Part shown: in pieces, positions 12,837 through 54,684 of the stretch | Numbering within the stretch: the first letter of the stretch is position 1 | How the letters are laid out: the number at the start of each line of letters is the position of its first letter | Virus record (IMG/VR): IMGVR_UViG_3300037484_000374 | Coordinates: 1 to 64,000 of that record | Length of the DNA stretch: 64,000 bases | Strand: one strand, 5' to 3' | Origin: a virus | Notes under the pieces: model-generated | The model's input: the letters and a program-made list of their open reading frames with translations, nothing else | Told to the model about the DNA's origin: nothing | Database searches by the model: none | Made by a program: the position numbers and the translations under genes

Positions 12837-13049
12837 TTATTTCGGGTCTAGATTCATAACCTCTGGATGCTTGTAAACATCATCAGATTTAAGACCTAAT
12901 TTTTTAATTTCCTTATCAATAGCTGTTTTACCAGCTTTGGCTCCCGCTACATTACCAAGTTTTCTCATCATAATATAATCCTTTACCCATTGTAAAAGAC
13001 CTGATGGTACATTCTTGGCTTCTGATAGTAAATATTTTTCAAATCTCAT
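12837..13049 (-). CDS. Small protein with CTS-like leader
   Basis: Starts MRFEKYLLSE. Confidence 0.7.
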   Translation of the reverse strand: MRFEKYLLSEAKNVPSGLLQWVKDYIMMRKLGNVAGAKAGKTAIDKEIKKLGLKSDDVYKHPEVMNLDPK

Positions 13050-13279
13050 TATTTCTCCTTTACCACCACCGACATGATATCATTGACCCCCTTCATTATT
13101 AATCTCAATGCATTTTCCAAGTCTTTTGAAGTCTTGTGATTTTCTCCAAGTACCCTCATTGACACTTTTAAAAGTTCGTTTAAATCCTTTACAATAGATT
13201 TATAATAGAAACGAGCCTTAACATCATCACCTTTCTCTTCATTAACTTGGTTGTCAATCATCTTTTTGAGTCGGCTCAT
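13049..13279 (-). CDS. Small hypothetical protein (probable start MSRL)
   Basis: TGATG overlap with upstream gene. Confidence 0.6.
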   Translation of the reverse strand: MSRLKKMIDNQVNEEKGDDVKARFYYKSIVKDLNELLKVSMRVLGENHKTSKDLENALRLIMKGVNDIMSVVVKEK

Positions 13280-13461
13280 CAGTCGGCTTCCTTTTTCCCC
13301 TTCCATTCTTTATCTACTTCGTTGAAAAATTCTTTCTTTTTAGCATCGTCAAGTTCTGAAATACCGGAAACACCGAATTTTTTCAATTTTACATTGAAGA
13401 ATTCTTTGTATGATTGTTCGCTCAAAAGGTACATGTCAATTTTTTTAATAATGTCGGTCAT
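13279..13461 (-). CDS. Small head-core-like protein with CTS-like leader
   Basis: MYLLSE then YKEFF...KKFGV...KKKEFFNEVDKEW; late promoter at 13490-13497. Confidence 0.65.
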   Translation of the reverse strand: MTDIIKKIDMYLLSEQSYKEFFNVKLKKFGVSGISELDDAKKKEFFNEVDKEWKGKKEAD

Positions 13462-13629
13462 TTGTTTTTTCTCCTTGTTGTTTGTTTAGTATTTATAAAA
13501 TACCACCCTCTTTTAATTTTAATATTTCCTCATCGGATAATATTTCCTCTTGTTCATTGTCCGATTCTTTTTTTTCGGAAACCCTATCTAAAGACTCTAA
13601 CAAAAAATCTATTCTATCTATTAAATCTC

Positions 13630-13815
13630 TCATTTCAGTAACATCGAAATCTGTATAACGGCTTTCTTTATAGCCTCTACAGCCTTTTTATTGTCGATCT
13701 CCCAAAGATTCTCTGCTGTTCCTATATAACCATTAACTAGCCTGAACAACACTTTAGGTTCTTTCACCTCTTTCAAAACATCAATTTCTTCTAGTATCCT
13801 TGTTAAGTTTGGCAT
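13630..13815 (-). CDS. Small hypothetical protein
   Basis: ORF with RBS downstream of the divergent late promoter. Confidence 0.6.
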   Translation of the reverse strand: MPNLTRILEEIDVLKEVKEPKVLFRLVNGYIGTAENLWEIDNKKAVEAIKKAVIQISMLLK

Positions 13816-13874
13816 TACAGACCCTCTTTTGATTTATTTTTAGTATTAATTTGATTTAACAACAATCTGTCAAT

Positions 13875-13892
13875 ATTATTTATATAAATAAT
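13875..13892. promoter_or_regulatory. Overlapping divergent T4-type late promoters (18-bp palindrome ATTATTTATATAAATAAT)
   Basis: TATAAATA on both strands at the strand switch. Confidence 0.75.
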
Positions 13893-13956
13893 TATAGAAT
13901 CACGATAAAAAAATTAATTTAATAAATAATAATGTACATACTAAATAGAGGGATTT

Positions 13957-14583
13957 ATGAGACTGTTAAATTATATATCAGAATCAAAAGCAATTGTTGT
14001 AGCAACCGATTTTACGGATATGATTGAGATTCTAAAGAAGGATTGTAAATCATATCTTAAAATGCTTGGTGGTAGTATGCCTTTTATGAAAGGTATAAGA
14101 GAATTACAAGGACATGGCCTTGTAAAGAAAAAAACCAATGAAGTCCGTAAAACCAAAGGCATGTTTCCATCAACCGCCAAACGTTTAAACGTTTGGCTTA
14201 AAAAGAATAATCATACAACAAGGGATGGGTCTGTAATTGTATCAAGTGATAGGGAGCGTTTAAATTACTTTGGGACAGCCTATTATGTTTTTCCTATTGG
14301 AAAAGTAGATTATACGTGGGTAGAGTCAAGAGATATTAATCTTTATGATGGTAGGACAGGTTGGGGTGAAATGGGTGTTGAAATTTTCTTTAAAAATCCA
14401 GATACATTTGACGATGATTATAAAACTAGATTGAGAAAACCTTTTGGTAAATACTTCCACACAAATAGTGGTTGGAAGAAAGCACAGAATTTTGGATATG
14501 AGACATGGTTTAAATGTGAAGAATTTTATCTGTTAAGAAGTGATTATATTTTGTTTCCAGAGCTAATAAACGAATTAAGATAA
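13957..14583 (+). CDS. CTS-leader protein, paralog of 29159-29935 (possible ART-like fold)
   Basis: MRLLNYISE leader; KKDCK..L, SVIVSS, YYVFP and ETW shared with the paralog. Confidence 0.7.
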   Translation: MRLLNYISESKAIVVATDFTDMIEILKKDCKSYLKMLGGSMPFMKGIRELQGHGLVKKKTNEVRKTKGMFPSTAKRLNVWLKKNNHTTRDGSVIVSSDRERLNYFGTAYYVFPIGKVDYTWVESRDINLYDGRTGWGEMGVEIFFKNPDTFDDDYKTRLRKPFGKYFHTNSGWKKAQNFGYETWFKCEEFYLLRSDYILFPELINELR

Positions 14584-14592
14584 GGAAGGGAT

Positions 14593-15363
14593 ATGTCGAG
14601 ATTTAGAGATTATATAGATGAAACAACCGTCACTGGTGATGTTGCAACCAATACAACCGCTACCAGCGGGGAAGATAATCTTATAAAGAAAAGAAATAAG
14701 AAGACTATGAAAAAACACCTCGGAGAAGCTACAATTCTTGGTGGTGGTGGTCAGGCTGGTGATGACGATACCCCTCCTGGGAACATCGTAATGGGTTTAA
14801 AATTTAAAAAAGAGAAAGTCAAGAATAGTTTAACCGGTGAGTATACAAGACAGGTTATTGATAATGACCCATTCTATTGGGATGAATTCGATAACTCTGC
14901 TGGTATGGAAGACCCTAATCGATATTCAGACACATTGAGAAAGAAATGGCGTAGAACCCCAAAAAAATATGACCTTGATGATACCGTTCCTAATTACGTT
15001 GAACGTTTCCATAAGCACATTAAAAAGCGTGATATTCCAGATGCCACTATTGCTCATAAAACAAGCCAAGACAAGGTGAGTTATTGGGGTACAATAGCCT
15101 TTACCGGAAACCCAAGACCATTTTTGAAGTATGTTGATGGTAAACAATCATTGAAAGAAGACAGACAAATCCATATAAACATATCTGATGACAGGGCTGG
15201 TGATCTCCTAAAGAAGATTCAGAGCATATATAATGATAGGGGTATCCAAGTAACACATAACTTCGTAAATGGCTTCATGACGCTTCCTGACCACCTCTAC
15301 GATGAAGTATTGGATCGACTATCAAATAGTAGCTGGATTGAAGTGGTTAAAGATGAGACTTAA
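14593..15363 (+). CDS. CTS-leader multi-module protein
   Basis: MSRFRDYIDE leader; internal LGE and LKE sites. Confidence 0.7.
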   Translation: MSRFRDYIDETTVTGDVATNTTATSGEDNLIKKRNKKTMKKHLGEATILGGGGQAGDDDTPPGNIVMGLKFKKEKVKNSLTGEYTRQVIDNDPFYWDEFDNSAGMEDPNRYSDTLRKKWRRTPKKYDLDDTVPNYVERFHKHIKKRDIPDATIAHKTSQDKVSYWGTIAFTGNPRPFLKYVDGKQSLKEDRQIHINISDDRAGDLLKKIQSIYNDRGIQVTHNFVNGFMTLPDHLYDEVLDRLSNSSWIEVVKDET

Positions 15364-15647
15364 ACAATACTTGACAGAAAAAGAGAAAAAATCATATAAT
15401 AGTAGTTGATATACAACCAATTTATCAACGTGCTACACATTTTGATATTAGAGAATTTATAGAGTTTCTAAAATTACAGGTCTTGTAAATGTTCATGCCG
15501 GTGAAGTGATTGGGTTTATGACCCTGAGAAGATAGGTAAACCTTTCAGTGAGCAACCGGGTTCATATAAGTGCCATGGGTGGGGCACCGAAGTTTGAATT
15601 CTCAAAAATGTAAATGGACTGTATTTTAAATTGAAGGGGGTTATGAA
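15353..15647 (+). pseudogene. Chimeric remnant: CTS leader, frameshifted IVVDIQP fragment, 39-bp patch from the tape-measure gene, then another gene's C-terminus
   Basis: MRLKQYLTE... stops at 15409; the alternative frame reads HIIVVDIQPIYQ; 15475-15513 equals 62003-62041. Confidence 0.65.
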
Positions 15648-16043
15648 ATGGAACTAGAAGAAAGAATTAGCAGATATTTAATGGAAGCAACCGGTGAGAA
15701 GGAAGCCGTGGCTAAAATAATGGAATTTTTCAAAGAAAATCCTTCACCACCAGATGCCGATATTCATGAATTGTCAGACAAACTTGGTATAAATACTCAT
15801 GTATTTGAGGGTATCATCTATGCTATATTGGGTTCTTTTCTTGGTGCTGGTCGGGCAAAAGAAAAGGGATTTGAAGAGAAAGATGCCGACCCGAAAGAAT
15901 TGAAAATCGGGATGAAGGTTGAAATGGAACATACAACTGACCCTGTACTGGCAAAAAGAATCTCGCTCGACCATTTAGCTGAGATTAAAGATTATTATTC
16001 ACGTTTAATAAAAATGGAAAAAGAAGCTGGAGTAGAAGATTAA
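15648..16043 (+). CDS. CTS-leader protein with DUF5661-like domain
   Basis: RYLME leader; ELKIGMKVEMEHT...A..I.LDHL.E..DYY.RL..ME. Confidence 0.75.
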   Translation: MELEERISRYLMEATGEKEAVAKIMEFFKENPSPPDADIHELSDKLGINTHVFEGIIYAILGSFLGAGRAKEKGFEEKDADPKELKIGMKVEMEHTTDPVLAKRISLDHLAEIKDYYSRLIKMEKEAGVED

Positions 16044-16044
16044 T

Positions 16045-16740
16045 ATGAATCTCAATGATAGATTAAATATTTATATAAATGAGGGTGTGATTGCTCATGA
16101 TAAATCCACCCTCTACGATCTCAAAGCAAATGGTTACAGAATTGCTGATGTGTATTACCATAACAGTGTTAATGGTATATTGTCTGCATTGGCTGTAAAA
16201 ACCATGCTTAAAGTATATGGGATAGGTGTTATATGGTCTTCCCCTATTTTAACCGGTACAGCACCGCCAATGATCCAGAAAGCTATAAACAAAATTCTAC
16301 TGGTTATTGTAGATATTAACGGGGATTTGATGGATATTAAGATAAGTTCTGACACTGATGAATATGATCTCCAAGTGGATATACGTGACTATTTCTCTCC
16401 GAGCGATCTTGACACCATAAGAAACACAACTGATGATGATATTATTAGATATGGGTTCAGGCCCATTGATGTTCTAAGGTCTGCTTTTGGTACTGAGGGT
16501 ATACTTGATATTGAAAAAAACTATATGGCTATGGGATTAACAATCACCAAGGTTTTAGAAGAACTAAGAGGCAATGATAAGTTTATAAACAGTGTGGTGA
16601 TGGAGTCTGGGTCAGGTTTGCTGTCTCTATACGCAAACGTTGTATCTATTGCAAAAAGATTCGGCTACACCCCTCCTGAGAGAGACATAGCCGAGATAAT
16701 GGAAACTATTTATATTCAAATAGATGAAAGATTTATTTAG
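16045..16740 (+). CDS. CTS-leader protein, degenerate DHH-like fold
   Basis: IYINE leader; YYHNSVNGILSA and LVIVD echo DHH motifs I and II without the catalytic residues. Confidence 0.55.
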   Translation: MNLNDRLNIYINEGVIAHDKSTLYDLKANGYRIADVYYHNSVNGILSALAVKTMLKVYGIGVIWSSPILTGTAPPMIQKAINKILLVIVDINGDLMDIKISSDTDEYDLQVDIRDYFSPSDLDTIRNTTDDDIIRYGFRPIDVLRSAFGTEGILDIEKNYMAMGLTITKVLEELRGNDKFINSVVMESGSGLLSLYANVVSIAKRFGYTPPERDIAEIMETIYIQIDERFI

Positions 16741-18158
16741 TTTCTGTTATGTATTATAAATTCTTTTACTTTATTTAAACAGTGTTCTTTATTAGCAATC
16801 CAAATTTCTTCATCAATTACCATTAAATCAATACCCTTTTCTTTACATTGTTGTTTTTTAATAGAGTCACGTTTCTTTACATTTTTTAAAGAGTGCCAAT
16901 AAACACCATTAAACTCAATTGCCTTATTCAACTCTGGAATCCATAAATCCAGTTCAAGATTACAACCTGTTTCTGGATTGACAATCTGAGTCCTATCATT
17001 TGAAATTACATCACCATCATATAGTTCTTTTGTATATTCAAAAATTTCAATTTCTACTTTGGAAGATGTTGATTCAGCCCAGCAAATAGGACATCGAATA
17101 CCCTGCTGAAAGTCACCAAATCGTACTTTATATTCATGTCCTTTGTTACATCTTATTCTTAATTTGGTATTCGTGTTTTTGTATGTGTTACTTAAAAGAT
17201 AATATCCTTCTTTTTCAATTTGTTCTTTTACATATTCATAAGTAAGTTTTTTATTAGGAGAGCACTCAGGACACCTACAACCTGTTTGAAAACTACTCCA
17301 TACTACTTTATATTCATGTCCTTTTGAACATCTCAACTTTAATTTAGTATTTGCATTGGTATATTCTTTACTTAGTAATTCATATCCTTCTTTTTCAATT
17401 TGTTCTTTTACGAATTCATAAGTAAGTTTTTTAGTTCCAAAGCAAATCAAACATCTATATCCTTGTTGAAAATCTCCCCATGTTACTTTATATTCATGCC
17501 CCTCTGGACACTTTACTTTTAATTTAGATTGTGAGTTTTTATATATTTTGCTTAATAATTTATACCCAAATGATTCAATATATCCTTTTACAAAATCATA
17601 TGTTAATTTTTTCTTTCCTGAACATTCAAGACACCTAATACCATATTTAAAACCGCCAAAATTTACCTTATATTCATGGCCCTCTGGACATCTTACTTTT
17701 AATTTGGAATTTGCACCTATATATCCGCTACTTAATAATTCATATCCAAATGAGTCAATATATTCTTTGACGAACCCATATGTATATTTCTTTAGCCCAG
17801 CACATTCAGCACATCTATGTCCGTTTTTAAAATCATTAAACGTCACATAGTATTCGTGTTTTTTACTACATTTTACTTTTAATTTATTTTTATTATTTTT
17901 ATATGTCTTACTTAAAAGTTTATACCCTTCTTTTTCAATTTTCTCCTTTACAAATTCATATGTTAGTTTCTTTTTACCGGCACACTCAGAACATCTATGT
18001 CCTTGTTGGAAATTATCATATGTTGGATAGTATTCATGACCCTCTGGACACCTTACTTTTAATTTTTTTCTGTTATTTTTATATTCTTCACTTAAAAGAG
18101 CACACCCAAATGATTCGATATGCTCTTTTATATATTCATATGTTACTTTTTTATACAT
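16737..18158 (-). CDS. Free-standing putative homing endonuclease: six 60-aa Cx3H...Cx2C repeats plus Vsr/PD-(D/E)xK-like domain
   Basis: Repeats visible; C-terminal ELDLWIPELNKAIEFNGVYWH. Confidence 0.85.
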   Translation of the reverse strand: MYKKVTYEYIKEHIESFGCALLSEEYKNNRKKLKVRCPEGHEYYPTYDNFQQGHRCSECAGKKKLTYEFVKEKIEKEGYKLLSKTYKNNKNKLKVKCSKKHEYYVTFNDFKNGHRCAECAGLKKYTYGFVKEYIDSFGYELLSSGYIGANSKLKVRCPEGHEYKVNFGGFKYGIRCLECSGKKKLTYDFVKGYIESFGYKLLSKIYKNSQSKLKVKCPEGHEYKVTWGDFQQGYRCLICFGTKKLTYEFVKEQIEKEGYELLSKEYTNANTKLKLRCSKGHEYKVVWSSFQTGCRCPECSPNKKLTYEYVKEQIEKEGYYLLSNTYKNTNTKLRIRCNKGHEYKVRFGDFQQGIRCPICWAESTSSKVEIEIFEYTKELYDGDVISNDRTQIVNPETGCNLELDLWIPELNKAIEFNGVYWHSLKNVKKRDSIKKQQCKEKGIDLMVIDEEIWIANKEHCLNKVKEFIIHNRN

Positions 18159-25040: not shown

Positions 25041-25061
25041 TTGAAAATCTTAATCTTTTTA

Positions 25062-25069
25062 TATAAATA
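25062..25069 (+). promoter_or_regulatory. T4-type late promoter TATAAATA (also + strand 45524, 51403, 56064, 56985; - strand 2392, 13490, 33571)
   Basis: Exact octamer in intergenic gaps before late genes. Confidence 0.8.
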
Positions 25070-25100
25070 CTATTGAATCACTTTATAAAAGGAGAATAAA

Positions 25101-25709: not shown

Positions 25710-26221
25710 AATCAATATGTAATATAATGATTGTAATGATGTTATTCATGGGTGCATGTGCGCCTAAACAGTTTGTTCCTTTTCAGCCACCTGAGTTGAC
25801 CATAGAAAATACAGCACCTTATGTTCTCGATATGACAACTATATCGAAACCCGAAAAGCTGATTCCAATATATGTTGATGAGAATATGAAACCGACAACC
25901 ATTGACAAGGCAAAGTTTGTTCTCTTAGCACCATCAGAATATGCCAAGATTGGTGCTCTTGTTAAGCTAGCGGAAACTTACAAGATGATTGCCATTGAAG
26001 AGGCAAGTTTTGTCAATATTCATATTGACACAATAAACAGTTTGAAAGAGTATGTTGCATTGGAAAGACAGAAAGCCATAGAGTATAGGAATCTGTGGAT
26101 GATGAGTGAAAATGCATACAGGCAAGAAGAATACAGACACAAGATGGATAACAGAATCAACAAGGCAACAATGTACCTCATTACAATCGGTTCTATTGTT
26201 CTGCTTGCTGTTGGATTATAA
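25706..26221 (+). CDS. Lipoprotein spanin with additional C-terminal TM helix
   Basis: MKSICN...LFMGAC lipobox; ends MYLITIGSIVLLAVGL. Confidence 0.6.
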   Translation: MKSICNIMIVMMLFMGACAPKQFVPFQPPELTIENTAPYVLDMTTISKPEKLIPIYVDENMKPTTIDKAKFVLLAPSEYAKIGALVKLAETYKMIAIEEASFVNIHIDTINSLKEYVALERQKAIEYRNLWMMSENAYRQEEYRHKMDNRINKATMYLITIGSIVLLAVGL

Positions 26222-26234
26222 ATAGGGTGAAATT

Positions 26235-27061: not shown

Positions 27062-27808
27062 ATGAGATTAAAACAATACTTAACAGAAAAGACTTTTAAT
27101 ATTAATAAGGATGTTGATTATATCTTTAACAAATATTTCAAGAAACTCTATATAGCTATTCTTCTGGATAAATGGGATGGAAAATTTGAAACAAAAACTT
27201 TCATGTCATCTGATTTACCATCAAAGGAAGCACAGGATGCGAGTAAACTAAACCCTATAAAAATTGTCATCACAACCGCAGACACTGGTAACTTTTATAT
27301 GTCCTTAAATCATTATATTCAGCTAAGTCCGAATACCAATGTTCTTAATATTTTGAGGAATTACGGTTCTATTAAAGACGCAACACTTATGGTTACTGAT
27401 AGATCGAAGATTATAGCGTTTAAAAATGAACTCAATGGTGTTAAGATGAAAGACTCTATATACCATGAATTATCACACTGGCTAGATGATACTTTTCACA
27501 ATTTTTTTCTTTCAAAAACGGTTAAACTGTCTCTCGAAACAGGTAAATATTTACAAAAACAAGGTAAAAATAACGTTAATGCATCAAAAATTGAGATTAA
27601 TGCCCAAATTCATACAATTAAACAATTGAAAAGAGTTTTCAGTAAGAAATGGGATAATCTATCATTCATGGATATGCTTGCTTTAGATGGTAGCTTTAGT
27701 TGGGTGTGGGGTGATCTTAAAGGTAGAGAGTTTGATATTTGGAAAAAAGATATATTAAAGAGAATGGCAAGAGAAAAACTTTTGGGTAAAAGGATGACGG
27801 TAAAGTGA
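27062..27808 (+). CDS. CTS-leader protein with HExxH zincin-like motif
   Basis: MRLKQYLTE leader; YHELSHWLD...EINA. Confidence 0.7.
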   Translation: MRLKQYLTEKTFNINKDVDYIFNKYFKKLYIAILLDKWDGKFETKTFMSSDLPSKEAQDASKLNPIKIVITTADTGNFYMSLNHYIQLSPNTNVLNILRNYGSIKDATLMVTDRSKIIAFKNELNGVKMKDSIYHELSHWLDDTFHNFFLSKTVKLSLETGKYLQKQGKNNVNASKIEINAQIHTIKQLKRVFSKKWDNLSFMDMLALDGSFSWVWGDLKGREFDIWKKDILKRMAREKLLGKRMTVK

Positions 27809-28458
27809 GACTAAAACAATACCTTACAGAAGAAAGCATAGACTCTGATGATTGGGGTGCTACAGGAAAAGCGTTTGAAAAGACGTTCCTGAGAGCATGT
27901 GATCTGTTGGGGTTGAAGTATGTTCTTAATGGTGTTAATGCCCGTGGATGGGACATGAAGCCAGTTGGTGATGGTTGGGAGAGAATCATATCAGATAAGG
28001 AAGTTAACATAAAGGTGTCCAGTACTAAATGGTTGTTTGGTTCTACAGAACTGACAACGATTGTTCCATGGGATAATATACCTGATGATTACAATGAAGA
28101 TTTGACAATTAAGAGAATCAAAAGAATATTACATAAAATTGATATTCCTCATACTGTTTTTCTTAAACCAAAAGATAAAAATGTTCAACAGAGTATAGTA
28201 GATGGTGTTAGGAGTGAAGATATCCCAGCACTTGAAAAAATATTCGTCAAGAAAAATTTCTATTCTGATAAATTAGGGAACACTTTTGATGTTCGTATCT
28301 TAAAAAGAGATAATAGAGTAACATCAATAGCAGTCAATAAAAAAGGAAAGGTTTTTATGAGATCAGAACCACCAAGAAAAGTTGGTGGTTCCATGTTCGT
28401 AACATTTAGAACACCTACAGCTAAGTTGGATGGTGGAGATCGCAAGGTTAAAAGCTAA
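27805..28458 (+). CDS. CTS-leader protein, possible PD-(D/E)xK-like nuclease fold
   Basis: MRLKQYLTE leader; GKAFE...WD...EVNIK. Confidence 0.55.
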   Translation: MRLKQYLTEESIDSDDWGATGKAFEKTFLRACDLLGLKYVLNGVNARGWDMKPVGDGWERIISDKEVNIKVSSTKWLFGSTELTTIVPWDNIPDDYNEDLTIKRIKRILHKIDIPHTVFLKPKDKNVQQSIVDGVRSEDIPALEKIFVKKNFYSDKLGNTFDVRILKRDNRVTSIAVNKKGKVFMRSEPPRKVGGSMFVTFRTPTAKLDGGDRKVKS

Positions 28459-29162
28459 TGAAATTTAAACAATACATAAACGAAAGTATTAATGACAAAG
28501 GAATCTTGAAAGCCTGTTTTATGGCTGGACAACCTGGGGCCGGTAAGACGTTTGTCATTAATAAAATAACTGGTGGGTCTGTACAGCCGAAAGTTATAAA
28601 CACAGACACATGGGCTGAGTTTTATAAAGCATATGGTGATAAAGAGTGGGATAAATATGGTAATAAAATAAAAACCCTTACAAAGAACCAATTATCTCTT
28701 TATCTTAATTCAATGCTACCATTGTGGGTAGATGGTACATCTTCTCTCCCAAATGCTGTTGTTAGGCGTAGAGGGATTGTTGAGTCAATAGGGTATGATA
28801 CAGCGTTTATATGGGTTGATACATCTCTCGAAACTGCCATAGAAAGACAACAGTTACGTGATAGGAAAGTTAATCCAGATGAGATTACTAAAATATATAA
28901 TAATATCCAACCTTTAAAGGATTACTATAAACACCATTTTAGAAACTTTATTGTTATTGATAACAATAAGGGAGAGTTTACAGATAGTGTGGTGTTGGGG
29001 GCATATAGAAAAATGAGTGGGTGGTTTACTGAGCCTCTTAAAAACCCAATTGGAACGATGTTGGTTGATAGAATGACAGAGAAGGGTGATAAATATCTTA
29101 CAGATAGCGAATACACAATGCCTCAGTTAAAAAACTTGGTAGAAGGGTGGTATAGACATTGA
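28458..29162 (+). CDS. CTS-leader P-loop kinase (zeta-toxin/AAA_33-like)
   Basis: MKFKQYINE leader; FMAGQPGAGKT, INTD, VDGT, R...R.R lid. Confidence 0.8.
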   Translation: MKFKQYINESINDKGILKACFMAGQPGAGKTFVINKITGGSVQPKVINTDTWAEFYKAYGDKEWDKYGNKIKTLTKNQLSLYLNSMLPLWVDGTSSLPNAVVRRRGIVESIGYDTAFIWVDTSLETAIERQQLRDRKVNPDEITKIYNNIQPLKDYYKHHFRNFIVIDNNKGEFTDSVVLGAYRKMSGWFTEPLKNPIGTMLVDRMTEKGDKYLTDSEYTMPQLKNLVEGWYRH

Positions 29163-29935
29163 AATTTAAAAACTATTTATTAAATGAAGGTCGGTCACGC
29201 TACATGGACGAGCAAGGAGCTGTTGATCATGTTCTATTGAATTGCGGGAAAGCCCTTACAGCCGCTAAGAAAGGTGATGTCATATATCGTGGGAAAAAGA
29301 CTAATTTTCTTTTTGATTATACTGATCCATCTAAAGGTAAGCCGAGGGTAAGCAGAAACACATCCAATCATATGACTTTGCTGATGGACAACTTACCATC
29401 ATGGAAAGGATGGCCGAAGCGAAGCAGAAGTCTTATATGTACGACAAGGGCTGCAAAGACAGTTGCTTATGGTAAAACATATGTTGTTTTACCGGAAGAT
29501 AATGTTAAGATGGGTGTTTGTTATGGTTCAGATATATGGGTATCATTCCCGTATGCTGGCATTAACTCATGGCGTGATTCTGTAAATGATTTTAATAAAT
29601 ACCTTAAAATTTTTGTCAATGATGAAAGCTGGCCATCTTTAAAGAAAGGGTTGAATATACAGGTGGATGATATTCAACTTATAGACTATGATGCTATAGA
29701 CTATGGTGCTCCTGAAATTATCAAGGATTGGAAACATCTTGGATCAACAAGTGAGCCTAATCTTACATTGTATGATCATCTCAATAAAATTCTTGATCCA
29801 AAGAAAAACAAATTCTTATTAAAGAAAGCAGGTGATGTGTTACCCAATGAAGAAAGAGAGGTATGGGTGGGTGGGCCTTGTGTTCTTATAAATTTAAGTA
29901 CGTTCTATCAGCTTATAGATGAACGTAAATTTTAA
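29159..29935 (+). CDS. CTS-leader protein, possible ADP-ribosyltransferase fold
   Basis: KFKNYLLNE leader; IYRG...SLICTT...YG..Y.V.P...EREVW. Confidence 0.6.
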   Translation: MKFKNYLLNEGRSRYMDEQGAVDHVLLNCGKALTAAKKGDVIYRGKKTNFLFDYTDPSKGKPRVSRNTSNHMTLLMDNLPSWKGWPKRSRSLICTTRAAKTVAYGKTYVVLPEDNVKMGVCYGSDIWVSFPYAGINSWRDSVNDFNKYLKIFVNDESWPSLKKGLNIQVDDIQLIDYDAIDYGAPEIIKDWKHLGSTSEPNLTLYDHLNKILDPKKNKFLLKKAGDVLPNEEREVWVGGPCVLINLSTFYQLIDERKF

Positions 29936-29955
29936 ACAAAAAAAGGGGGGGGGTT

Positions 29956-30270
29956 ATGAAATTAAGGGATTATTTAAATGAAGTGAAGTTACCACCAAAG
30001 ACATCATATGTTAAATGGAGTTCTATCTTTGATAATACAAGCAACAAATATGATGTTGAGTTGTTTATGAAGGCACTCAAGGCCGCCGGTGCAAGTAAGG
30101 TATGGGATGACAATCAATTTGGATGGTCAAACCAACCAAAGGTTGTAATGTTCACTGGTCTTGATGATAAGAAAGCAGAGGATGCTCTGGATAAACTACC
30201 TGTATTTAAAAAATGGGGTGCTGTTGTTCATGATGCAAATGATGATTGGAAAGAATACGGTAAGAAATAA
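29956..30270 (+). CDS. CTS-leader small protein
   Basis: MKLRDYLNE. Confidence 0.7.
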   Translation: MKLRDYLNEVKLPPKTSYVKWSSIFDNTSNKYDVELFMKALKAAGASKVWDDNQFGWSNQPKVVMFTGLDDKKAEDALDKLPVFKKWGAVVHDANDDWKEYGKK

Positions 30271-30283
30271 AAGGGGGATTATT

Positions 30284-30595
30284 ATGGACTATAGTAAATA
30301 TTTAATAGAGTCAAAGGTAAGTCCGAGTGATAGAAATATCATTCTCACTATTCTACTCACCGGAAAGACAGGTGGTTTTGAGATGGCAAGTGTTAACAGC
30401 CATATTCAGACCATGAAAAGGGGTAATAAATTCATAGTAAAATACCCGAAGAACTCTGCCTCTTTAGCTTTAGAACTAGCTGATATTCTTGATCTTTTAG
30501 ATATATCCTTTACCGTTGGTCTTAGCGGTGGACTTTCTATTATTACATTTGAAGACCAAAAAGAACTGTCCAAGGCCGTAGTTAATAAAAGGTAA
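30284..30595 (+). CDS. CTS-leader small protein (start corrected)
   Basis: MDYSKYLIE after AGGGGG RBS. Confidence 0.7.
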   Translation: MDYSKYLIESKVSPSDRNIILTILLTGKTGGFEMASVNSHIQTMKRGNKFIVKYPKNSASLALELADILDLLDISFTVGLSGGLSIITFEDQKELSKAVVNKR

Positions 30596-46535: not shown

Positions 46536-48776
46536 GTGGCTATCAAAAACTTCGTATTAGACACCAACGTAATAATTTCAAGTAAGGACGCTATAAAGAC
46601 AATTATGAACGGAAACGATGGCGGTGAAGCAAATAATATATTCATACCATATACGGTTTTGGAGGAATTAGACTGTCTTAAAATGAATACAAAACTCAGA
46701 CCAATGGTGTATGAGGCATTTGAACAATTAAAAGAGTATAAAGATCATATCAAATTTATAGGTAATAGAGAAAAGAAAACACCGGATAATAAAATACTGG
46801 ATGAAATTCGTGATGCCGAACTTGAACTTAATTTAGGCGATGAGAATACAATATTCTTAACAAATGATATCATGCTACAGATAAAAGCAGAGGCCGAGGG
46901 TATCAATCCACAGGAATTCAAAGATTCAAAACCATATGAATCCGAGAGTCAACAATGTGATGGCTTTGTAAACGTTGATGAGGGTGAAAAGTTTTTTCCG
47001 AACTGTTTCTACTGGCAAGATGGAAGGTTGATGTTTAATGGAGTAAAAGAAGTACACACTGTACCTGATCATGCACCATGGAAGATAACACCTAAAAGTT
47101 ATTACCAAAATGCCGCTATTGATCTGATGAAAAATGATGAAATTAACCTCGTTACGATTCAGTCAAGGGCCGGTCTTGGTAAAGCACAACCATTAGATGC
47201 CAAAATATTAACACCTAATGGATGGAAAAAAATGGGTGATTTACAAGTTGGTGATATGGTTATAAATTCACAAGGAGAACCGACAAAGGTTTTAACAATA
47301 CACCCACAAGGAGAAAAGGAAATATATAGAGTATTATTTAATGATAATAGTAGTACAGAATGTTGTGATGATCATTTATGGTTTGTTAGAAAAGAATATC
47401 ATAAATACCAAGTAAAAAAATTAAGAGATATAAAAGATAATCTATATAATGAAAAACGAAAAAGATTGAATTGGTTTATACCGACAGTATCACCAATAAA
47501 ATTCCAAAAAAAACCATTACCAATAAAACCATACTTGATGGGGGTTTTATTGGGTGATGGTGGAATGACAACAAGTAATGTAAGTATAACAACAGTAGAT
47601 AAAGAAATAATAGATCATTGTAGTGATATATTACCAGATGGGTTATATATCAAACATATATGTGAACACCAATATCATATTAACATGCTTGATAGAAAAA
47701 TTGGCGGTAAAAAAGATATTTTTACAAATATTATTAACAAAATACTATATGAATTAAAATTATTTAAACTGAAATCACATGAAAAATTTATACCAGTTGA
47801 TTATTTATATTCATCTATAGATGATAGGGTACAAATACTCAGAGGATTGATGGATACAGATAGTGGTATTCTTAAAGATAACAGAGTTGAATATCATACT
47901 TCTTCATCAAAATTAAGAGATGGTGTTATTTTTTTGGTGAGATCACTTGGAGGTAGGGCATATTTTAATAAAAAAACACCATATTATATCTATAATGGGA
48001 TGAAAAAACAAGGTAAGGAAAGCTATACTGTTAGAATAACATTACCATCTGATATTAACCCATTTTTCTTAAAAAGAAAGGTTAATATATATAATGGTTA
48101 TAAGAAATATCCACCATCAAGAGGAATAAAAGAAATAAAATATATTGGTAATAAAGAAGCACAATGTATCACGGTTGATTCAGATGACCATATGTATATC
48201 ACAGATGATTTTATCGTCACCCATAATTCATATATATCACTGGCCACGGCATTGGAACAGACATTCGAGAAAAAGAAATATGAGAAGATATACATCTTTA
48301 AAAATATAGTAAATATTGGACAGGGGTTGGGTTTCCTTCCAGGAAGTCTTGAGGATAAGATAGAACCATACACCAGATATATGGTATCATTAATTCAAAA
48401 ACTCAGTGGTGTCAGAAAATTGAGCGAGAGAATTATGGATGCTAATGGGGTTATTAATCCACATTACATCGAGATTCTTCCTCTGACATTTATCAGGGGT
48501 ATGAACATTGAAGATGCATTTGTAATCATCGATGAGACACAGAACATTTCTCGACAAGAAATGAGAGCACTTCTGACAAGAATGTGCGGTAATGTTAAGG
48601 TTTGTTGCATCGGGGATACGTCACAGGTCGATGCTATGTTTCTCAATGAAATGAATAACGCTCTTAACTGGACTGTTAAATTATGTAAAGGCCAAGAACA
48701 CTATGGTCATATAACCTTGAAAGGTAATAAATCAAGAGGCCCGATCACAGACATGGTTCTTAAAGTAGGATTATAA
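46536..48776 (+). CDS. phoH: PIN-PhoH protein containing an intein
   Basis: VLDTNV PIN start; RAGLGK|intein|S; GFLPG, RGMNI, IIDETQN, GDTSQVD. Confidence 0.92.
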   Translation: MAIKNFVLDTNVIISSKDAIKTIMNGNDGGEANNIFIPYTVLEELDCLKMNTKLRPMVYEAFEQLKEYKDHIKFIGNREKKTPDNKILDEIRDAELELNLGDENTIFLTNDIMLQIKAEAEGINPQEFKDSKPYESESQQCDGFVNVDEGEKFFPNCFYWQDGRLMFNGVKEVHTVPDHAPWKITPKSYYQNAAIDLMKNDEINLVTIQSRAGLGKAQPLDAKILTPNGWKKMGDLQVGDMVINSQGEPTKVLTIHPQGEKEIYRVLFNDNSSTECCDDHLWFVRKEYHKYQVKKLRDIKDNLYNEKRKRLNWFIPTVSPIKFQKKPLPIKPYLMGVLLGDGGMTTSNVSITTVDKEIIDHCSDILPDGLYIKHICEHQYHINMLDRKIGGKKDIFTNIINKILYELKLFKLKSHEKFIPVDYLYSSIDDRVQILRGLMDTDSGILKDNRVEYHTSSSKLRDGVIFLVRSLGGRAYFNKKTPYYIYNGMKKQGKESYTVRITLPSDINPFFLKRKVNIYNGYKKYPPSRGIKEIKYIGNKEAQCITVDSDDHMYITDDFIVTHNSYISLATALEQTFEKKKYEKIYIFKNIVNIGQGLGFLPGSLEDKIEPYTRYMVSLIQKLSGVRKLSERIMDANGVINPHYIEILPLTFIRGMNIEDAFVIIDETQNISRQEMRALLTRMCGNVKVCCIGDTSQVDAMFLNEMNNALNWTVKLCKGQEHYGHITLKGNKSRGPITDMVLKVGL
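47184..48227 (+). mobile_element. Ala1 class 3 intein with LAGLIDADG endonuclease (348 aa)
   Basis: AQPLDAK start; DHLW, AQCITV, IVTHN|S; GVLLGDG and RGLMDTD. Confidence 0.9.
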
Positions 48777-49835
48777 ATGCCAAAAAAACTAACATGTAAT
48801 CATGTGAAAAGAATGATCGAAAATTGTGATGGTTATATACTATTATCATCGGAATATATTAATAATCATTCAAAATTAAAAATTAGATGTCCTGATGGTC
48901 ATGAATATAAGGCAACTTATAATGATTTTCAAGCCGGTAATAGATGTCCTTTATGTGCTAAAAATAGAAAATTTACATATAATTTTATAAAGAAACATAT
49001 AACAAAAGAAGGATATATACTTTTAAGCGAAGATTATAAAGATACACATTCAAAATTAAAAATTAAATGCCCAAAACAACATATTTTTGAAATGGGTTTT
49101 AATTCATTTAAACATGGACAAAGATGTTCTGTTTGTTATGGAACACCAAAACATACATATGAATTTATCAAAGAGCATATAGAATATTCTGGATGTAAAC
49201 TTTTAAGTAAAGAATATAAAGGCAATAAAAAACATTTAAGAATTCAATGTAAGAATAATCACATATTTAAAATGAGATGGGACTGTTTTCAAAGAGGTCA
49301 GAGATGTAAAGAATGTAGTATTGATAATACAAGAATGAAACATGAGTATATAAAGGAACAATTTGAAAAGGAAGGTTATTATTTACTTAGCTGTAAGTAT
49401 AAGAATAATCATTCAAAATTAAAAGTTCAATGTCCTATTGGACATAAGTATATGACAGCATATCAAAGATGGTATAACGGTAATAGATGCCCTATTTGTT
49501 ATGCAGAAACAACATCATCAATACCAGAAAAAGAAGTATTTGAAATAGTTAAACAAATATATGATGGGGGTTTGATTGCTAACGATAGAACACAAATAAT
49601 TAATCCAAGTACAGGATGTGGTCTTGAGTTGGATGTATGGCTTCCAGAGTTAAGAAAAGCAATTGAGTTTAATGGTGTTTATTGGCACTCATCATACTAT
49701 ACTAAAAGAAAAGACAAAATAAAGAAACAACAATGTGAAGAAAAAGGTATTGATTTAATGATAATATACGATTGTGAATGGTTATATGGCAAAGAAAAAT
49801 GTCTAAATAAAATAAATAAATTCGTAGGATTATAA
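48777..49835 (+). CDS. Zinc-repeat (four repeats) putative homing endonuclease
   Basis: Same repeat and ELDVWLPELRKAIEFNGVYWH domain. Confidence 0.85.
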   Translation: MPKKLTCNHVKRMIENCDGYILLSSEYINNHSKLKIRCPDGHEYKATYNDFQAGNRCPLCAKNRKFTYNFIKKHITKEGYILLSEDYKDTHSKLKIKCPKQHIFEMGFNSFKHGQRCSVCYGTPKHTYEFIKEHIEYSGCKLLSKEYKGNKKHLRIQCKNNHIFKMRWDCFQRGQRCKECSIDNTRMKHEYIKEQFEKEGYYLLSCKYKNNHSKLKVQCPIGHKYMTAYQRWYNGNRCPICYAETTSSIPEKEVFEIVKQIYDGGLIANDRTQIINPSTGCGLELDVWLPELRKAIEFNGVYWHSSYYTKRKDKIKKQQCEEKGIDLMIIYDCEWLYGKEKCLNKINKFVGL

Positions 49836-51392: not shown

Positions 51393-51442
51393 TAATATTT
51401 TATATAAATACTATTGAATAATTTTATTTAAAAGGATAATAG

Positions 51443-51731
51443 ATGAGGTTTCATAAATTCATAACAGAGATGGTCGCACCTAGACAACGGGATATTGCTA
51501 AGGTCTATTAACCCAGAAACAGGTCGAAACCTCGAACTGGATGTATGGCTTCCAGAGTTAAGAAAAGCAATTGAGTTTAACGAAAGATATTGACACTCAT
51601 CTATATATGCCAAACAACATGATAAAATTAAAAACAACAATGTAAGGAAACAGGTAATATTATTAGTGGTTAAGGGTAATTATGTCAAAGAAAAATGTCT
51701 AAATAAAATAAAAGAATTTATAAAGGGATAA
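51443..51731 (+). pseudogene. Truncated CTS-leader ORF fused to a decayed endonuclease C-terminus
   Basis: MRFHKFITE...stop at 51511, then INPETGRNLELDVWLPELRKAIEFN with an in-frame stop. Confidence 0.8.
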
Positions 51732-51737
51732 TAAACT

Positions 51738-52577
51738 ATGGCTATAACAAGACAAGAACTCAGAGAGCGGGTTAAACACAGACTTGGATACCCGATGGTT
51801 AAGGTAGAAATTTGTGACACACAGATAGATGATCATATAATATATGCAAGGGATAAATTTATAAAATGGGCTGTGGGTAATGCACGACAGGAACATTTCC
51901 TAACAGTAATGTTAAGAGGTGGTCAGAGTATATATGATATGCCACCTGGGGTTACTGATATTATCAGCTACGATGATAAGGGGGTTGGTAACAGTGGTGG
52001 TATAAATACACTTTTCTCAATCGAGAATTACATGTACAAGAGCGGTATGCTTGACAGTTTTTTTCATAGCGGATTTTCATTGGTTGAGTATCATATCGCC
52101 CTTGACTTTCTTGAAACCTTAGACAGATACATTACGACAGATTATAACTGGAAATATCATAGACACACAAACCAGTTAGAGATATACCCAGCACCACCTG
52201 TAAGTGGTGGTTGTTTATATGATACTAACGGTTTATTGGTTGATTCCCCAGGATTTGTACTGGTAAAGACTATGATGATAGAGGGTGCAACCTTACCAAC
52301 ATATACTCCAAGTACATCAGGAGCCTATAGAGTTGATGAACAATTTGAAGACGCTCTTTGGGACAAAGATTGGATCATTGATTATGTTACGGCAATGTCA
52401 AAAATAACATTGGGTATGATCAGAAGAAAATTCGCCAGTTTTTCAGGATTAGGTGGCCAAGGTATAGCTTTGGATGGTTCAGAATTGATAGGTGAAGGTA
52501 AAGAGGAAAAAGCAGACCTCGAATTAACACTTAGAGATGAGGAATGTTATGATGGATACGGAATAACTTTTGGGTGA
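51738..52577 (+). CDS. gp13: Neck protein
   Basis: RLGYP.V.VE...Q..D; WIIDY..A..K...G..R.KF. Confidence 0.88.
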   Translation: MAITRQELRERVKHRLGYPMVKVEICDTQIDDHIIYARDKFIKWAVGNARQEHFLTVMLRGGQSIYDMPPGVTDIISYDDKGVGNSGGINTLFSIENYMYKSGMLDSFFHSGFSLVEYHIALDFLETLDRYITTDYNWKYHRHTNQLEIYPAPPVSGGCLYDTNGLLVDSPGFVLVKTMMIEGATLPTYTPSTSGAYRVDEQFEDALWDKDWIIDYVTAMSKITLGMIRRKFASFSGLGGQGIALDGSELIGEGKEEKADLELTLRDEECYDGYGITFG

Positions 52578-52585
52578 GGAATTAT

Positions 52586-53548
52586 ATGAGCAGATTACAT
52601 AATTATATGACAGAGGGAAATGGTAAGGTTGTTAAGGTTGTAATATTAACATCCCGTAGTGGTGACAATACCATAAAAACATCAGCTGAGAAGTTTGAAG
52701 AATCTGCTAAAAAGCATGATATGACCCCATATCTGGTATATTCTGAGGATGGGTATATATCAGATGATAAAGTAACTACCATCCACAATATTGATGATAA
52801 GAAAGGGTTTAAAATTGACCCAGATAATACAGTTGTCATCGCCCGTGGTGGTGTTCTTTACACAAAGACAGGTATTAATCTATTACATCAGCTTGAAACC
52901 CTTGGATTTTTCTGTGTGAATACAAGAAAATCTATGGAATTATGTAGCGATAAATATAAATCAATGTTGATGTTCAGAAAACTTGGAATAGACACACCCA
53001 TTACTCGCATAGTGAGTTCTCAGGAAAAACTTGAGGTTGTTATAGATAGAATCACCACATTTCCAGTTGTTATTAAGACAATATCTGGATATGGGGGTGC
53101 TGGGGTGTTCAAAATCGACTCAGTGGAGAATTTAAGACCGACACTACAGGCAATATGGAATATCAGTGAAGACGAGGAGATGCTAATTCAGGACTTCATA
53201 GAGAGTGATGGTGACATAAGAATTCATGTTCTTGGTGGTGAGATCATAGCCGCAATGAAACGAGTAAAACCGGATGATGATTTCAGATCAAATTATTCTC
53301 TCGGTGGAGATATAGAATCAGTAGAAATAACAGACAAAATGAAAAACATGGCAATATTGGCAACGAAGGAATCTGGACTTTCATGGTCTGGTGTTGATAT
53401 TATAATAGATAAGAAAAATAATAAACCGTATATGGTTGAAATCAATGGTTCCCCAGGAACAGAGGGGATTGACAAAGTATTAAAAACTAAATCAACAATC
53501 GATATTGTTCTTGAATTTATTAAAGATAAAAATAACTGGGATAATTAA
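52586..53548 (+). CDS. RimK-like ATP-grasp ligase with CTS-like leader
   Basis: MSRLHNYMTE leader; DKY, PVVIK..GYGG.GV, DIR, FRSN.SLGG, EINGSPG. Confidence 0.88.
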   Translation: MSRLHNYMTEGNGKVVKVVILTSRSGDNTIKTSAEKFEESAKKHDMTPYLVYSEDGYISDDKVTTIHNIDDKKGFKIDPDNTVVIARGGVLYTKTGINLLHQLETLGFFCVNTRKSMELCSDKYKSMLMFRKLGIDTPITRIVSSQEKLEVVIDRITTFPVVIKTISGYGGAGVFKIDSVENLRPTLQAIWNISEDEEMLIQDFIESDGDIRIHVLGGEIIAAMKRVKPDDDFRSNYSLGGDIESVEITDKMKNMAILATKESGLSWSGVDIIIDKKNNKPYMVEINGSPGTEGIDKVLKTKSTIDIVLEFIKDKNNWDN

Positions 53549-53550
53549 TA

Positions 53551-54258
53551 ATGGCTTGTAACTGCAAAGACGTATTAAAGGGGACACCGCTATGGAGCAT
53601 GTACGATGTCACAGAAGATAACTGTGAACATGCACTGTATGACTCTATAATAACAGAGATGACAGACATTTCTGGGTTTCCGGTTGAAATTTATATACCA
53701 ATCAGAACATTTGACCCATTATATGGTGAGGATGCATCAGAGAATTTATCTGATCCTGTAATGACAAAACTGATATATGAACCATTAGAGGGTTTATCGA
53801 TCACAGAGGCATTTGGTATTACCAGTGATGAGACATTACAATATGCTTTTATTCCAAAATCTACATTCACCAGAGACTTGAGTGCGGCCTATTATGCGTT
53901 GGCCCCATCTGGAACTGATGTATTGGTTGTTCCAAGGCCAGGACTTGTTATTAAGACCCTATGGGATAATAGAAATTATGAAGTAGTTGATGTTGGTAAA
54001 GAACAGAACATCTTCCTAGCCAAGAAACTTATCTATGAATTCATCTTGAGACCATTCAGATTTAGTGAACAATCAGACACACACAGAGAGATACACACCG
54101 GTATGGATGCAAGCACATTTGAAACACATGTTACAAGTGGTGGCGATGCTCTATCCGATTTTATAGAGAATGAATATGGGGATAATGATTTTATTGAAAC
54201 AGAGTCAAATAAGATTGATAAATATCAGGACATTGACGAAAAAATGTTCGGAAGGTAA
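53551..54258 (+). CDS. gp14: Neck protein
   Basis: DPLYGED, FGI, RPG.VI...YEV; synteny. Confidence 0.8.
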   Translation: MACNCKDVLKGTPLWSMYDVTEDNCEHALYDSIITEMTDISGFPVEIYIPIRTFDPLYGEDASENLSDPVMTKLIYEPLEGLSITEAFGITSDETLQYAFIPKSTFTRDLSAAYYALAPSGTDVLVVPRPGLVIKTLWDNRNYEVVDVGKEQNIFLAKKLIYEFILRPFRFSEQSDTHREIHTGMDASTFETHVTSGGDALSDFIENEYGDNDFIETESNKIDKYQDIDEKMFGR

Positions 54259-54262
54259 TTAA

Positions 54263-54502
54263 ATGAGACTATTAAACTTTTTATCAGAGGAAGAATCATT
54301 CAGTCAAAAGTTGGCTGGTATGAAGGATTCAATTCAAGCACTGAGAGATAAACTTATAGAACTTGAAAATAGTCTCGGTGATGCCGCTGATAATGATGAA
54401 ACTAAGAAAATACGATCTGAGATGGATACTGTAAAGGGTAATATAAAGATCGCAAAGCTAAAACTTGAAATGACCAAGGACAATGGAAGACTTAGCAAAT
54501 GA
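54263..54502 (+). CDS. CTS-leader coiled-coil protein
   Basis: MRLLNFLSE. Confidence 0.7.
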   Translation: MRLLNFLSEEESFSQKLAGMKDSIQALRDKLIELENSLGDAADNDETKKIRSEMDTVKGNIKIAKLKLEMTKDNGRLSK

Positions 54503-54684
54503 AATTCAAGCAATACCTAAATGATATTAATGAACCATCACCCATGGATTTATCAAATATATCACCAAAAGATATTTCTGGCCTAATAAAGAAGGATTGT
54601 AAACCATTCCTGAACAAGACAACGTTATATATGTTCAGAGGTATAAAAAATTCAAACGGTACAGATATTTTTAAAAAGTTATAA
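54499..54684 (+). pseudogene. Truncated paralog of the 13957/29159 family
   Basis: MKFKQYLND...IKKDCKPFL...MFRGI then stop. Confidence 0.6.

What the first reader, a model, noticed from the sequence alone, without database searches (positions are those of the whole stretch)
12837..54684. Large family of unrelated proteins sharing a capsid-targeting-like N-terminal leader: a putative injected cargo set
Seen: at least 16 ORFs start with M-x-(F/L/Y)-x-x-(Y/F)-(L/I/M)-x-E or a close variant. Examples: MRFEKYLLSE, MRLLNYISE, MSRFRDYIDE, ..RYLME, ..IYINE, MRLKQYLTE (three times), MKFKQYINE, MKFKNYLLNE, MKLRDYLNE, MDYSKYLIE, MRFHKFITE, MSRLHNYMTE, MRLLNFLSE, MKFKQYLND. All lie downstream of TATAAATA promoters, and none of the replication or tail genes has the leader. 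Established: T4 internal proteins use MKTYQEFIAE, cleaved after (L/I)xE by gp21. Inference: a portable tag loads a diverse enzyme set (kinase, ATP-grasp ligase, zincin, nuclease-like, ART-like) into the head for co-injection.
Basis: partly seen in the sequence, partly recalled or inferred. Interest (0 to 1): 0.82.

Follow-up and report, generated by a model that had tools for sequence, protein, structure and literature searches.

The report
Capsid-loading leader tags on phage cargo
An uncultured distant relative of phage T4 starts about twenty otherwise unrelated late genes, several of them enzymes, with the same nine-residue peptide. The peptide matches the tag T4 uses to load proteins into its head and then cut off, so these proteins are probably packed in the virion and delivered with the DNA, though nothing has been measured for this phage.

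Summary
The window holds 14 intact ORFs and 2 truncated remnants that begin M-[RK]-[FL]-x-x-[YF]-[LIM]-x-E, and four more lie elsewhere in the 171-kb genome. The motif is 11-fold enriched at N-termini (p = 8e-10). The protein bodies are unrelated, and identical leaders use different codons.

The conserved positions match the T4 capsid targeting sequence: the targeting residues 4 and 7, and the processing residues 8 and 10. The phage has a gp21-type protease, a gp22-type scaffold enriched in [LIM]-x-E, and M-N-E at the capsid propeptide site.

Related uncultured phages carry arrays with their own leader variant. Leader similarity follows the phage, not the protein family.

Homologues of three cargo families in Agrobacterium jumbo phage Atu_ph07 carry an equivalent leader. 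All 12 leader-type proteins among its first 62 gene products are in the published virion proteome.

Packaging, cleavage and injection are untested for this phage.

The principle is known for T-even phages, and this scan has noted similar leader sets in at least eight other genomes. I class it as a new variant of a known kind, of moderate interest.

The parts
12837..13049 (-). Leader gene, 70 aa, basic; lies directly upstream of the head-closure gene 12357-12833
13957..14583 (+). Leader gene, 208 aa (phrog_11975); TATAAATA lies 66 nt upstream; homologous to the N-terminal part of Atu_ph07 virion protein gp54
14593..15363 (+). Leader gene, 256 aa, no family match
15353..15409 (+). Truncated leader remnant (18 codons), followed by stops in all frames
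15648..16043 (+). Leader gene with the motif at residues 9-13; 131 aa, DUF5661 at the C-terminus
16045..16740 (+). Leader gene with the motif at residues 9-13; 231 aa, acidic
27062..27808 (+). Leader gene, 248 aa, HExxH motif at residue 135 (possible zincin); first of four translationally coupled genes
27805..28458 (+). Leader gene, GTG start, 217 aa; weak restriction-endonuclease-like lead; 59% identical orthologue in L014
28458..29162 (+). Leader gene, 234 aa, P-loop kinase-like (AAA_33 / Zeta_toxin); homologous to residues 247-456 of Atu_ph07 virion protein gp53
29159..29935 (+). Leader gene, TTG start, 258 aa; conserved Arg, Ser and Glu columns and a weakly ART-like fold; homologous to the Atu_ph07 virion array
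29956..30270 (+). Leader gene, 104 aa (phrog_32873)
30284..30595 (+). Leader gene, 103 aa
51443..51511 (+). Truncated leader remnant (22 codons), 32 nt after a late promoter; matches the N-terminus of a 213-aa protein intact in L014
52586..53548 (+). Leader gene, 320 aa, RimK-type ATP-grasp ligase, next to the neck adaptor gene
54263..54502 (+). Leader gene, 79 aa
54499..54684 (+). Leader gene, 61 aa; Asp at the usual Glu position, with I-N-E three residues later
13883..13890 (+). TATAAATA late-type promoter motif heading the 13957-16740 string
26217..26224 (+). TATAAATA motif heading the M15 peptidase gene and the 27062-30595 leader array
51403..51410 (+). TATAAATA inside a 20-nt extended motif that recurs identically at 25057 and at genome 73062; heads the 51443-54684 string
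13490..13497 (-). TATAAATA motif heading 13306-12357 (an 85-aa gene, leader gene 12837-13049, head closure)

Best explanation
The nine-residue leader is this phage lineage's version of the T4 capsid targeting sequence. The proposed mechanism has four steps:
1. The leader genes are transcribed late, together with the head, neck and tail genes.
2. The leader docks each protein onto the assembling scaffold core of the prohead. The hydrophobic residue at position 3 and the aromatic residue at position 6 would do the docking.
3. The gp21-type serine protease cuts after [LIM]-x-Glu and frees the mature, mostly basic protein inside the head.
4. The cargo leaves with the DNA at infection.

The cargo is about 20 proteins and 6% of the genome. 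It includes a P-loop kinase-like protein, a RimK-type ATP-grasp ligase, an amidoligase, a SprT-type zincin and a probable ADP-ribosyltransferase.

Shown here: the motif, its enrichment, the unrelated bodies, the protease and scaffold genes, the promoter context, the phage-specific leader variants and the homology to virion proteins of Atu_ph07. Inferred: docking, cleavage and injection.
For: 1. The motif is real and enriched, and selection acts on the peptide.
2. In the T4 CTS, residues 4 and 7 carry targeting and residues 8 and 10 carry processing (PMC9026906). gp21 cuts after L/I-x-E. The conserved positions here, 3, 6, 7 and 9, have the same spacing and chemistry.
3. The phage encodes an S77 gp21-type protease, a T4-type scaffold and a gp23-type capsid protein.
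4. The capsid propeptide boundary reads M-N-E, and I-N-E in relative L019.
5. The scaffold has 17 [LIM]-x-E sites against 9.9 in composition-preserving shuffles, P = 0.006.
6. Leader genes sit behind TATAAATA motifs among neck, head-closure and tail genes. Two isolated leader genes outside those blocks (genome 97805, 115905) have TATAAATA directly upstream; the one at 152282 has it too but adjoins the head gene block.
7. Seven related uncultured phages carry arrays with their own leader variant. Mean leader similarity is 20.3 for same phage, different family, against 10.1 for different phage, same family.
8. Homologues of cargo 29159, 28458 and 13957 lie in Atu_ph07 gp53-62. All 12 leader-type proteins among gp1-62 are in its virion proteome, against 12 of the 50 others, Fisher p = 1e-6 (PMC6102473 Table S5). 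The only match to the exact leader pattern outside the array fits proteome entry gp408 by molecular weight.
9. In the AlphaFold2 model of 29159 (mean pLDDT 82.9), residues 1-9 have pLDDT below 50.
10. Twelve of 17 mature cargo proteins have pI above 8.5, against 36% genome-wide. T4 internal proteins are also basic.
Against: - There are no protein-level data for this phage, which is uncultured.
- The Atu_ph07 preparation was PEG-purified and listed 131 proteins, some of them likely contaminants.
- Most of its leader proteins are paralogues, so the counts are not independent.
- Its leader differs in sequence from this one.
- That proteome does not show N-terminal cleavage or where in the virion the proteins sit.
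- I picked the leader-bearing genes in relatives by eye, which inflates the within-phage similarity figure.
- Five cargo proteins are acidic or neutral.
- Two leaders start at residue 9 rather than 2.
Confidence: 0.72

Rival explanations
1. The proteins are virion-associated, but the leader directs them elsewhere, for example to external decorations or the neck or tail, or it is only an inhibitory propeptide. On this view they are not injected effectors.
For: Atu_ph07 is a 'hairy' phage with many uncharacterised virion proteins (PMC6102473; PMC7824862). The proteome gives no location. Leader genes here sit next to neck and tail genes.
Against: The leader ends in the gp21-type cleavage motif, and that protease acts inside the prohead. 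The cargo includes soluble enzyme folds and basic proteins, like T4 internal proteins. The T4 precedent, Alt, is an injected ART.
Confidence: 0.12
2. The leader is a shared N-terminal helix for some other common partner, such as a chaperone, a host factor or a degradation or localisation system, and has nothing to do with the virion.
For: No direct packaging data exist for this phage. The complex prediction of scaffold with a leader protein gave no verdict.
Against: It does not explain the invariant [LIM]-x-E ending, the late-promoter and morphogenesis-gene context, or why leader-bearing homologues are all found in a virion proteome.
Confidence: 0.08
3. The shared start is a recombination or duplication scar: a cassette of promoter, ribosome site and first codons that spreads by shuffling. 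Alternatively it is an RNA-level translation signal. On this view the peptide has no function.
For: Leader genes occur in tandem arrays. A 20-nt extended late-promoter motif recurs identically. T4-type phages are known to shuffle modules by way of regulatory cassettes (PMC2839356, listed).
Against: Identical peptides are encoded with different synonymous codons, and the upstream regions differ. Atu_ph07 leaders differ widely in DNA while keeping the peptide. Four array genes start inside the stop codon of the gene before and have no cassette of their own.
Confidence: 0.05

Closest known systems
Phage T4 capsid targeting sequence on internal proteins IPI, IPII, IPIII (and the Alt propeptide), removed by prohead protease gp21
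   Same: A short N-terminal tag on unrelated, mostly basic proteins. It has a hydrophobic or aromatic residue, then an aromatic, an aliphatic, any residue and Glu, with the same spacing as T4. It ends in L/I-x-E. The phage has gp21-, gp22- and gp23-type genes and late expression signals. One cargo protein is probably an ART, as Alt is.
   Different: The tag is nine residues rather than ten and has a different consensus. There are about 20 carriers against T4's handful. The cargo is rich in enzyme families (kinase-like, ATP-grasp, amidoligase, zincin). The phage is very distant from T4, with DNA polymerase and capsid protein at most about 29% and 36% identical to the best-matching phage records in the collection. 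Function is untested.
Propeptide-bearing head and ejection proteins of phiKZ, 201phi2-1 and SPN3US giant phages
   Same: Many head-packaged proteins are processed after Glu by a diverged gp21-type protease.
   Different: Their motif is S/A-x-E and their propeptides are longer and more varied. Here P3 is always L, I or M, and the tag is a uniform nonapeptide.
Polyvalent proteins of phages (Iyer et al. 2017, PMC5512222) and MuF- or portal-fused effectors
   Same: The repertoire of effector domains is the same (ART, zincin, kinase-like, ligases), and they too are proposed to be packaged and injected. The fused forms phrog_12810 and Atu_ph07 gp53 join the ART-like and kinase-like modules that are separate genes here.
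   Different: Here each module is its own gene with its own short tag. They are not domains of one giant polypeptide tied to a head protein.
Atu_ph07 gp53-62 virion protein array
   Same: These are homologous bodies, each with an N-terminal leader ending in L-x-E. They form a tandem array, and virion presence was shown by mass spectrometry.
   Different: The leader consensus differs (Trp at position 3, Gln-Leu at positions 5-6). The array is mostly paralogues of one family, whereas this phage has many families.

Membership tests
T4-type CTS-bearing, gp21-processed head cargo | Short N-terminal propeptide with hydrophobic or aromatic residues at the targeting positions (T4 residues 4 and 7) | tested here: met
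   Position 3 is mostly F or L and position 6 is Y or F, with the same i, i+3 spacing (T4 data from PMC9026906).
T4-type CTS-bearing, gp21-processed head cargo | Propeptide ends in the gp21 cleavage motif L/I-x-E | tested here: met
   P3 is L, I or M and P1 is E in 20 of 20 leaders (motif).
T4-type CTS-bearing, gp21-processed head cargo | Phage encodes a gp21-type protease and a gp22-type scaffold core | tested here: met
   Peptidase_S77 at 76.5 bits, T4_CASP scaffold and Gp23 capsid protein. The scaffold is enriched in [LIM]-x-E.
T4-type CTS-bearing, gp21-processed head cargo | The tag is portable: the carriers are unrelated to one another | tested here: met
   No body pair reaches E < 0.01. 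The leader tracks the phage, not the family.
T4-type CTS-bearing, gp21-processed head cargo | Late expression together with head genes | tested here: inconclusive
   The TATAAATA motifs and the gene neighbourhood fit, but there are no expression data, and the octamer alone is only about 1.3-fold above the composition expectation.
T4-type CTS-bearing, gp21-processed head cargo | Protein physically present in the virion | not testable with these tools
   Known only for homologues in Atu_ph07 (PMC6102473 Table S5).
T4-type CTS-bearing, gp21-processed head cargo | Leader removed by the prohead protease; cargo ejected into the host | not testable with these tools
   No N-terminal or infection data exist.
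Polyvalent proteins (Iyer et al. 2017) | Several effector domains fused in a single polypeptide | tested here: not met
   The modules are separate ORFs, each with its own start and leader. Fused forms exist only in other phages.
phiKZ-type processed head proteins | Cleavage motif S/A-x-E | tested here: not met
   P3 is L, I or M in every leader.
ADP-ribosyltransferase fold (cargo 29159) | ART fold with catalytic Arg, Ser and Glu | tested here: inconclusive
   R44, S65 and E234 are invariant in 16 homologues. ART-fold chains (Arr, diphtheria toxin, PARPs, DarT) lead the VIA-align list, mixed with other folds, but Z is at most 5.4. Foldseek found nothing, and Pfam reported no family at E ≤ 0.01.

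The most novel reading that the evidence does not exclude
Each lineage of T4-like and jumbo phages uses its own short 'address code' that co-evolves with its prohead core. If so, the whole packaged and injected proteome of an uncultured phage can be read from the genome alone. In this phage it would be an unbundled, fast-changing effector kit (ART-like, kinase-like, zincin, ATP-grasp and amidoligase enzymes) of about 20 proteins, several times larger than T4's.
Probability: 0.45. Interest if true: 0.7.

Novelty: new variant of a known kind. Interest (0 to 1): 0.55.

Why it matters
If the tag works as in T4, it gives a sequence-only way to list the proteins a phage delivers with its DNA. Those proteins act first against host defences and are usually invisible to annotation.

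The cargo here points to early protein modification of the host: ADP-ribosylation, phosphorylation, peptide ligation and proteolysis.

Phage-specific tag variants would also be useful as orthogonal packaging handles for loading foreign proteins into capsids, as is already done with the T4 CTS.

The principle is not new. Reviews of T4 already suggest that the CTS lets T4-like phages package varied proteins (PMC9026906, PMC3012670). This scan has flagged similar leader sets in several other genomes.

Tried and rejected
- **Close DNA relatives.** Megablast of 8 kb against GenBank phages found no match.
- **Complex prediction.** The gp22-type scaffold with the 70-aa leader protein scored 0.00, which gives no verdict either way.
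- **Second structure model.** AlphaFold2 on the kinase-like cargo with a 3-sequence alignment gave mean pLDDT 51, too poor to say whether its leader is outside the fold.
- **Foldseek.** The 29159 model had no match in PDB at E ≤ 0.001.
- **Search with cargo 27062.** The search for related loci found only a near-identical contig.
- **RsoM2USA proteomics.** Only the ten strongest gel bands were analysed, so it is uninformative. The XacN1 paper gives no list in the text I searched.
- **RNA-level explanation.** Rejected because identical leaders use different synonymous codons.
- **A look-alike motif.** The loose motif also matches the N-terminus of a paralogous family of homing-endonuclease-like proteins (K-L-T-Y-E-Y-V-K-E-Q-I-E type). 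These are related to one another and are not leader carriers.
- **gp numbering in Atu_ph07.** Numbering by protein accession order works up to gp65 but not at 304 kb. I identified gp407 and gp408 by matching the molecular weights of two adjacent proteins (39.66 and 30.60 kDa). This is an inference, not a confirmed mapping.
Full report
**What the window is.** The window is bases 1-64000 of a 170,951-bp IMG/VR virus record. Its DNA polymerase and major capsid protein are at most about 29% and 36% identical to the best-matching phage records in the collection (cyanophages, pelagiphage, rhizobiophages). It is therefore a distant, uncultured member of the T4 superfamily.

Annotated neighbours in the window:
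- tail sheath, tail tube and sheath stabiliser
- neck adaptor and head closure
- terminase
- DnaB-type and UvsW-type helicases
- RtcB
- a split DNA polymerase

**The observation.**
- Fourteen are intact ORFs.
- Two (15353-15409 and 51443-51511) are short remnants. The second matches the first 22 residues of a 213-aa protein that is intact in the related contig L014.
- Four further carriers lie outside the window:
  - a SprT-type zincin (genome 67462)
  - an amidoligase (97805)
  - a small ORF with an in-frame TGA (about 115905)
  - a 104-aa ORF (152282)

Two carriers use GTG or TTG starts that overlap the stop codon of the gene before. A public gene call for one of them began at a later ATG and so missed the leader.

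Numbers:
- Anchored on the terminal Glu, P1 is Glu and P3 is Leu, Ile or Met in 20 of 20 leaders. P4 is Tyr or Phe in 15 of 20.
- The core motif is 11.4-fold enriched at N-termini over internal positions (p = 8e-10).
- With the leader removed, no two bodies are similar.
- Three copies of one identical nonapeptide use different codons, so selection acts on the peptide.

**Comparison with the T4 tag.** According to the review PMC9026906:
- The first ten residues of IPIII suffice for packaging.
- Residues 4 and 7 matter for targeting, and residues 8 and 10 for processing.
- Asp at position 10 blocks cleavage but not targeting.
- gp21 cuts after L/I-x-E.

The conserved positions here are 3, 6, 7 and 9. 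They have the same spacing and chemistry, with the tag one residue shorter.

**The phage has the matching machinery.**
- It encodes an S77 gp21-type protease, a T4-type scaffold and a gp23-type capsid protein.
- At the place that aligns with T4's propeptide boundary the capsid protein reads M-N-E. Relative L019 reads I-N-E there.
- The scaffold carries 17 [LIM]-x-E sites against 9.9 expected from shuffles (P = 0.006). This fits a core that is digested at that motif.

**Expression context.**
- TATAAATA lies within 100 nt upstream of five leader genes. It heads the co-directional strings that contain the others.
- Two isolated carriers away from the morphogenesis blocks (genome 97805 and 115905) have their own copy. 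The carrier at 152282 also has one, but it adjoins the head gene block.
- In the window the carriers sit beside the head-closure, neck and tail genes.
- The octamer alone is only slightly over-represented, so this is supportive, not decisive.

**Relatives.**
- Homologues of the 29159 protein in metagenomes keep a leader of the same type.
- Seven uncultured phage contigs carry tandem arrays in which every gene starts with that phage's own variant. One variant comes very close to the T4 sequence.
- Leader similarity is high between unrelated families in the same phage (mean score 20.3). It is low between members of one family in different phages (10.1).
- This is what a tag that co-evolves with a phage-specific receptor would show. 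I chose the array genes by eye, which inflates the first number but not the second.

**Experimental anchor.**
- The 29159 protein is homologous (E = 9e-26) to a tandem array in Agrobacterium jumbo phage Atu_ph07, and each member starts with an equivalent leader.
- Atu_ph07 gp53 also contains a homologue of the kinase-like cargo. gp54 contains a homologue of cargo 13957.
- The published virion proteome lists gp53 to gp65 with 3 to 31 unique peptides each (PMC6102473, Table S5).
- Among gp1-62, all 12 proteins with the leader type are in the proteome, against 12 of the 50 others (p = 1e-6). The 12 include two small proteins unrelated to the array.
- The exact DNA pattern for the leader occurs ten times in that genome. 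The one copy outside the array fits proteome entry gp408 by molecular weight.

Limits of this evidence:
- The preparation was PEG-purified.
- Many of the proteins are paralogues.
- There is no information on cleavage or on location within the virion.

**Structure and charge.**
- In a confident AlphaFold2 model of the 29159 protein (mean pLDDT 82.9), residues 1-9 have pLDDT below 50. The tag lies outside the fold.
- ART-fold proteins lead its structural neighbours, but only at Z of 5.4 or lower.
- Twelve of 17 mature cargo proteins are basic, against 36% of all genes.

**Verdict.** The best reading is a T4-type capsid-targeting and cleavage leader that marks an enlarged set of head-packaged proteins (confidence 0.72). 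The rivals are a different virion location, a different partner, or a recombination or RNA signal. They explain less.

The principle is established for T-even phages (PMC3012670; PMC9026906). Notes from this scan describe similar leader sets in at least eight other genomes. The comparative-genomics papers I read infer packaging from fusions and gene neighbourhood and do not mention short leaders. I therefore class the finding as a new variant of a known kind.

Noticed in passing
genome 161883-163565 (-), L001:1378-3060: The gp21-type prohead protease gene is 560 codons long. The S77 match is split into two stretches around a roughly 360-residue insertion. The insertion begins with Cys and ends Asn-Cys, so it looks like an intein carrying a homing endonuclease.
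   Followed up: partly
window 16737-18158 (-), 36656-37888 (-), 48777-49835 (+); fragments at 3217-3435 and 26766-26942; more copies outside the window: A paralogous family with CapR or treble-clef zinc-finger repeats and a REase_MTES_1575-type C-terminus. All members share their own N-terminal motif (K-L-T-Y-E-Y-V-K-E-Q-I-E type). They are probably free-standing homing endonucleases. The motif mimics the leader in loose searches.
   Followed up: partly
window 37888-39747 (-) and 34659-35528 (-): The family B DNA polymerase is split into an N-terminal gene and a C-terminal gene that carries the DTDS motif. One of the endonuclease-like genes and several small ORFs lie between them.
   Followed up: no
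window 46536-48776 (+), 20539-21936 (-), 32125-33099 (-) with 31171-32064 (-): The PIN-PhoH protein contains Hint and LAGLIDADG matches. The DnaB-type and UvsW-type helicase genes end in or adjoin intein-splicing domains. Inteins, some apparently split, are common in this genome.
   Followed up: no
window 25057-25076 and 51398-51417; genome 73062-73081: An identical 20-nt extended late-promoter motif (a T-rich run, then TATAAATA, then ACTATTGA) recurs. Near-copies lie at genome 97758 and 115872.
   Followed up: partly
window 29938-29953: A homopolymer tract of seven A followed by nine G lies immediately upstream of the start codon of leader gene 29956-30270. It could be a slippage-prone ribosome-binding region.
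   Followed up: no
genome about 115905-116186 (+), L005: A small late ORF with the leader type has an in-frame TGA after about 50 codons and continues in frame.
   Followed up: partly
L014:2734-13683: In a related 204-kb contig, about twelve leader genes form one continuous 11-kb array. They include orthologues of genes that are scattered over four sites in this phage, so the cargo set is being rearranged and partly lost. Two remnants remain here.
   Followed up: partly
window 51512-51737: Behind the 22-codon leader remnant lies a decayed reading frame that resembles the C-terminal part of a small endonuclease. An endonuclease gene insertion may have destroyed this cargo gene.
   Followed up: no
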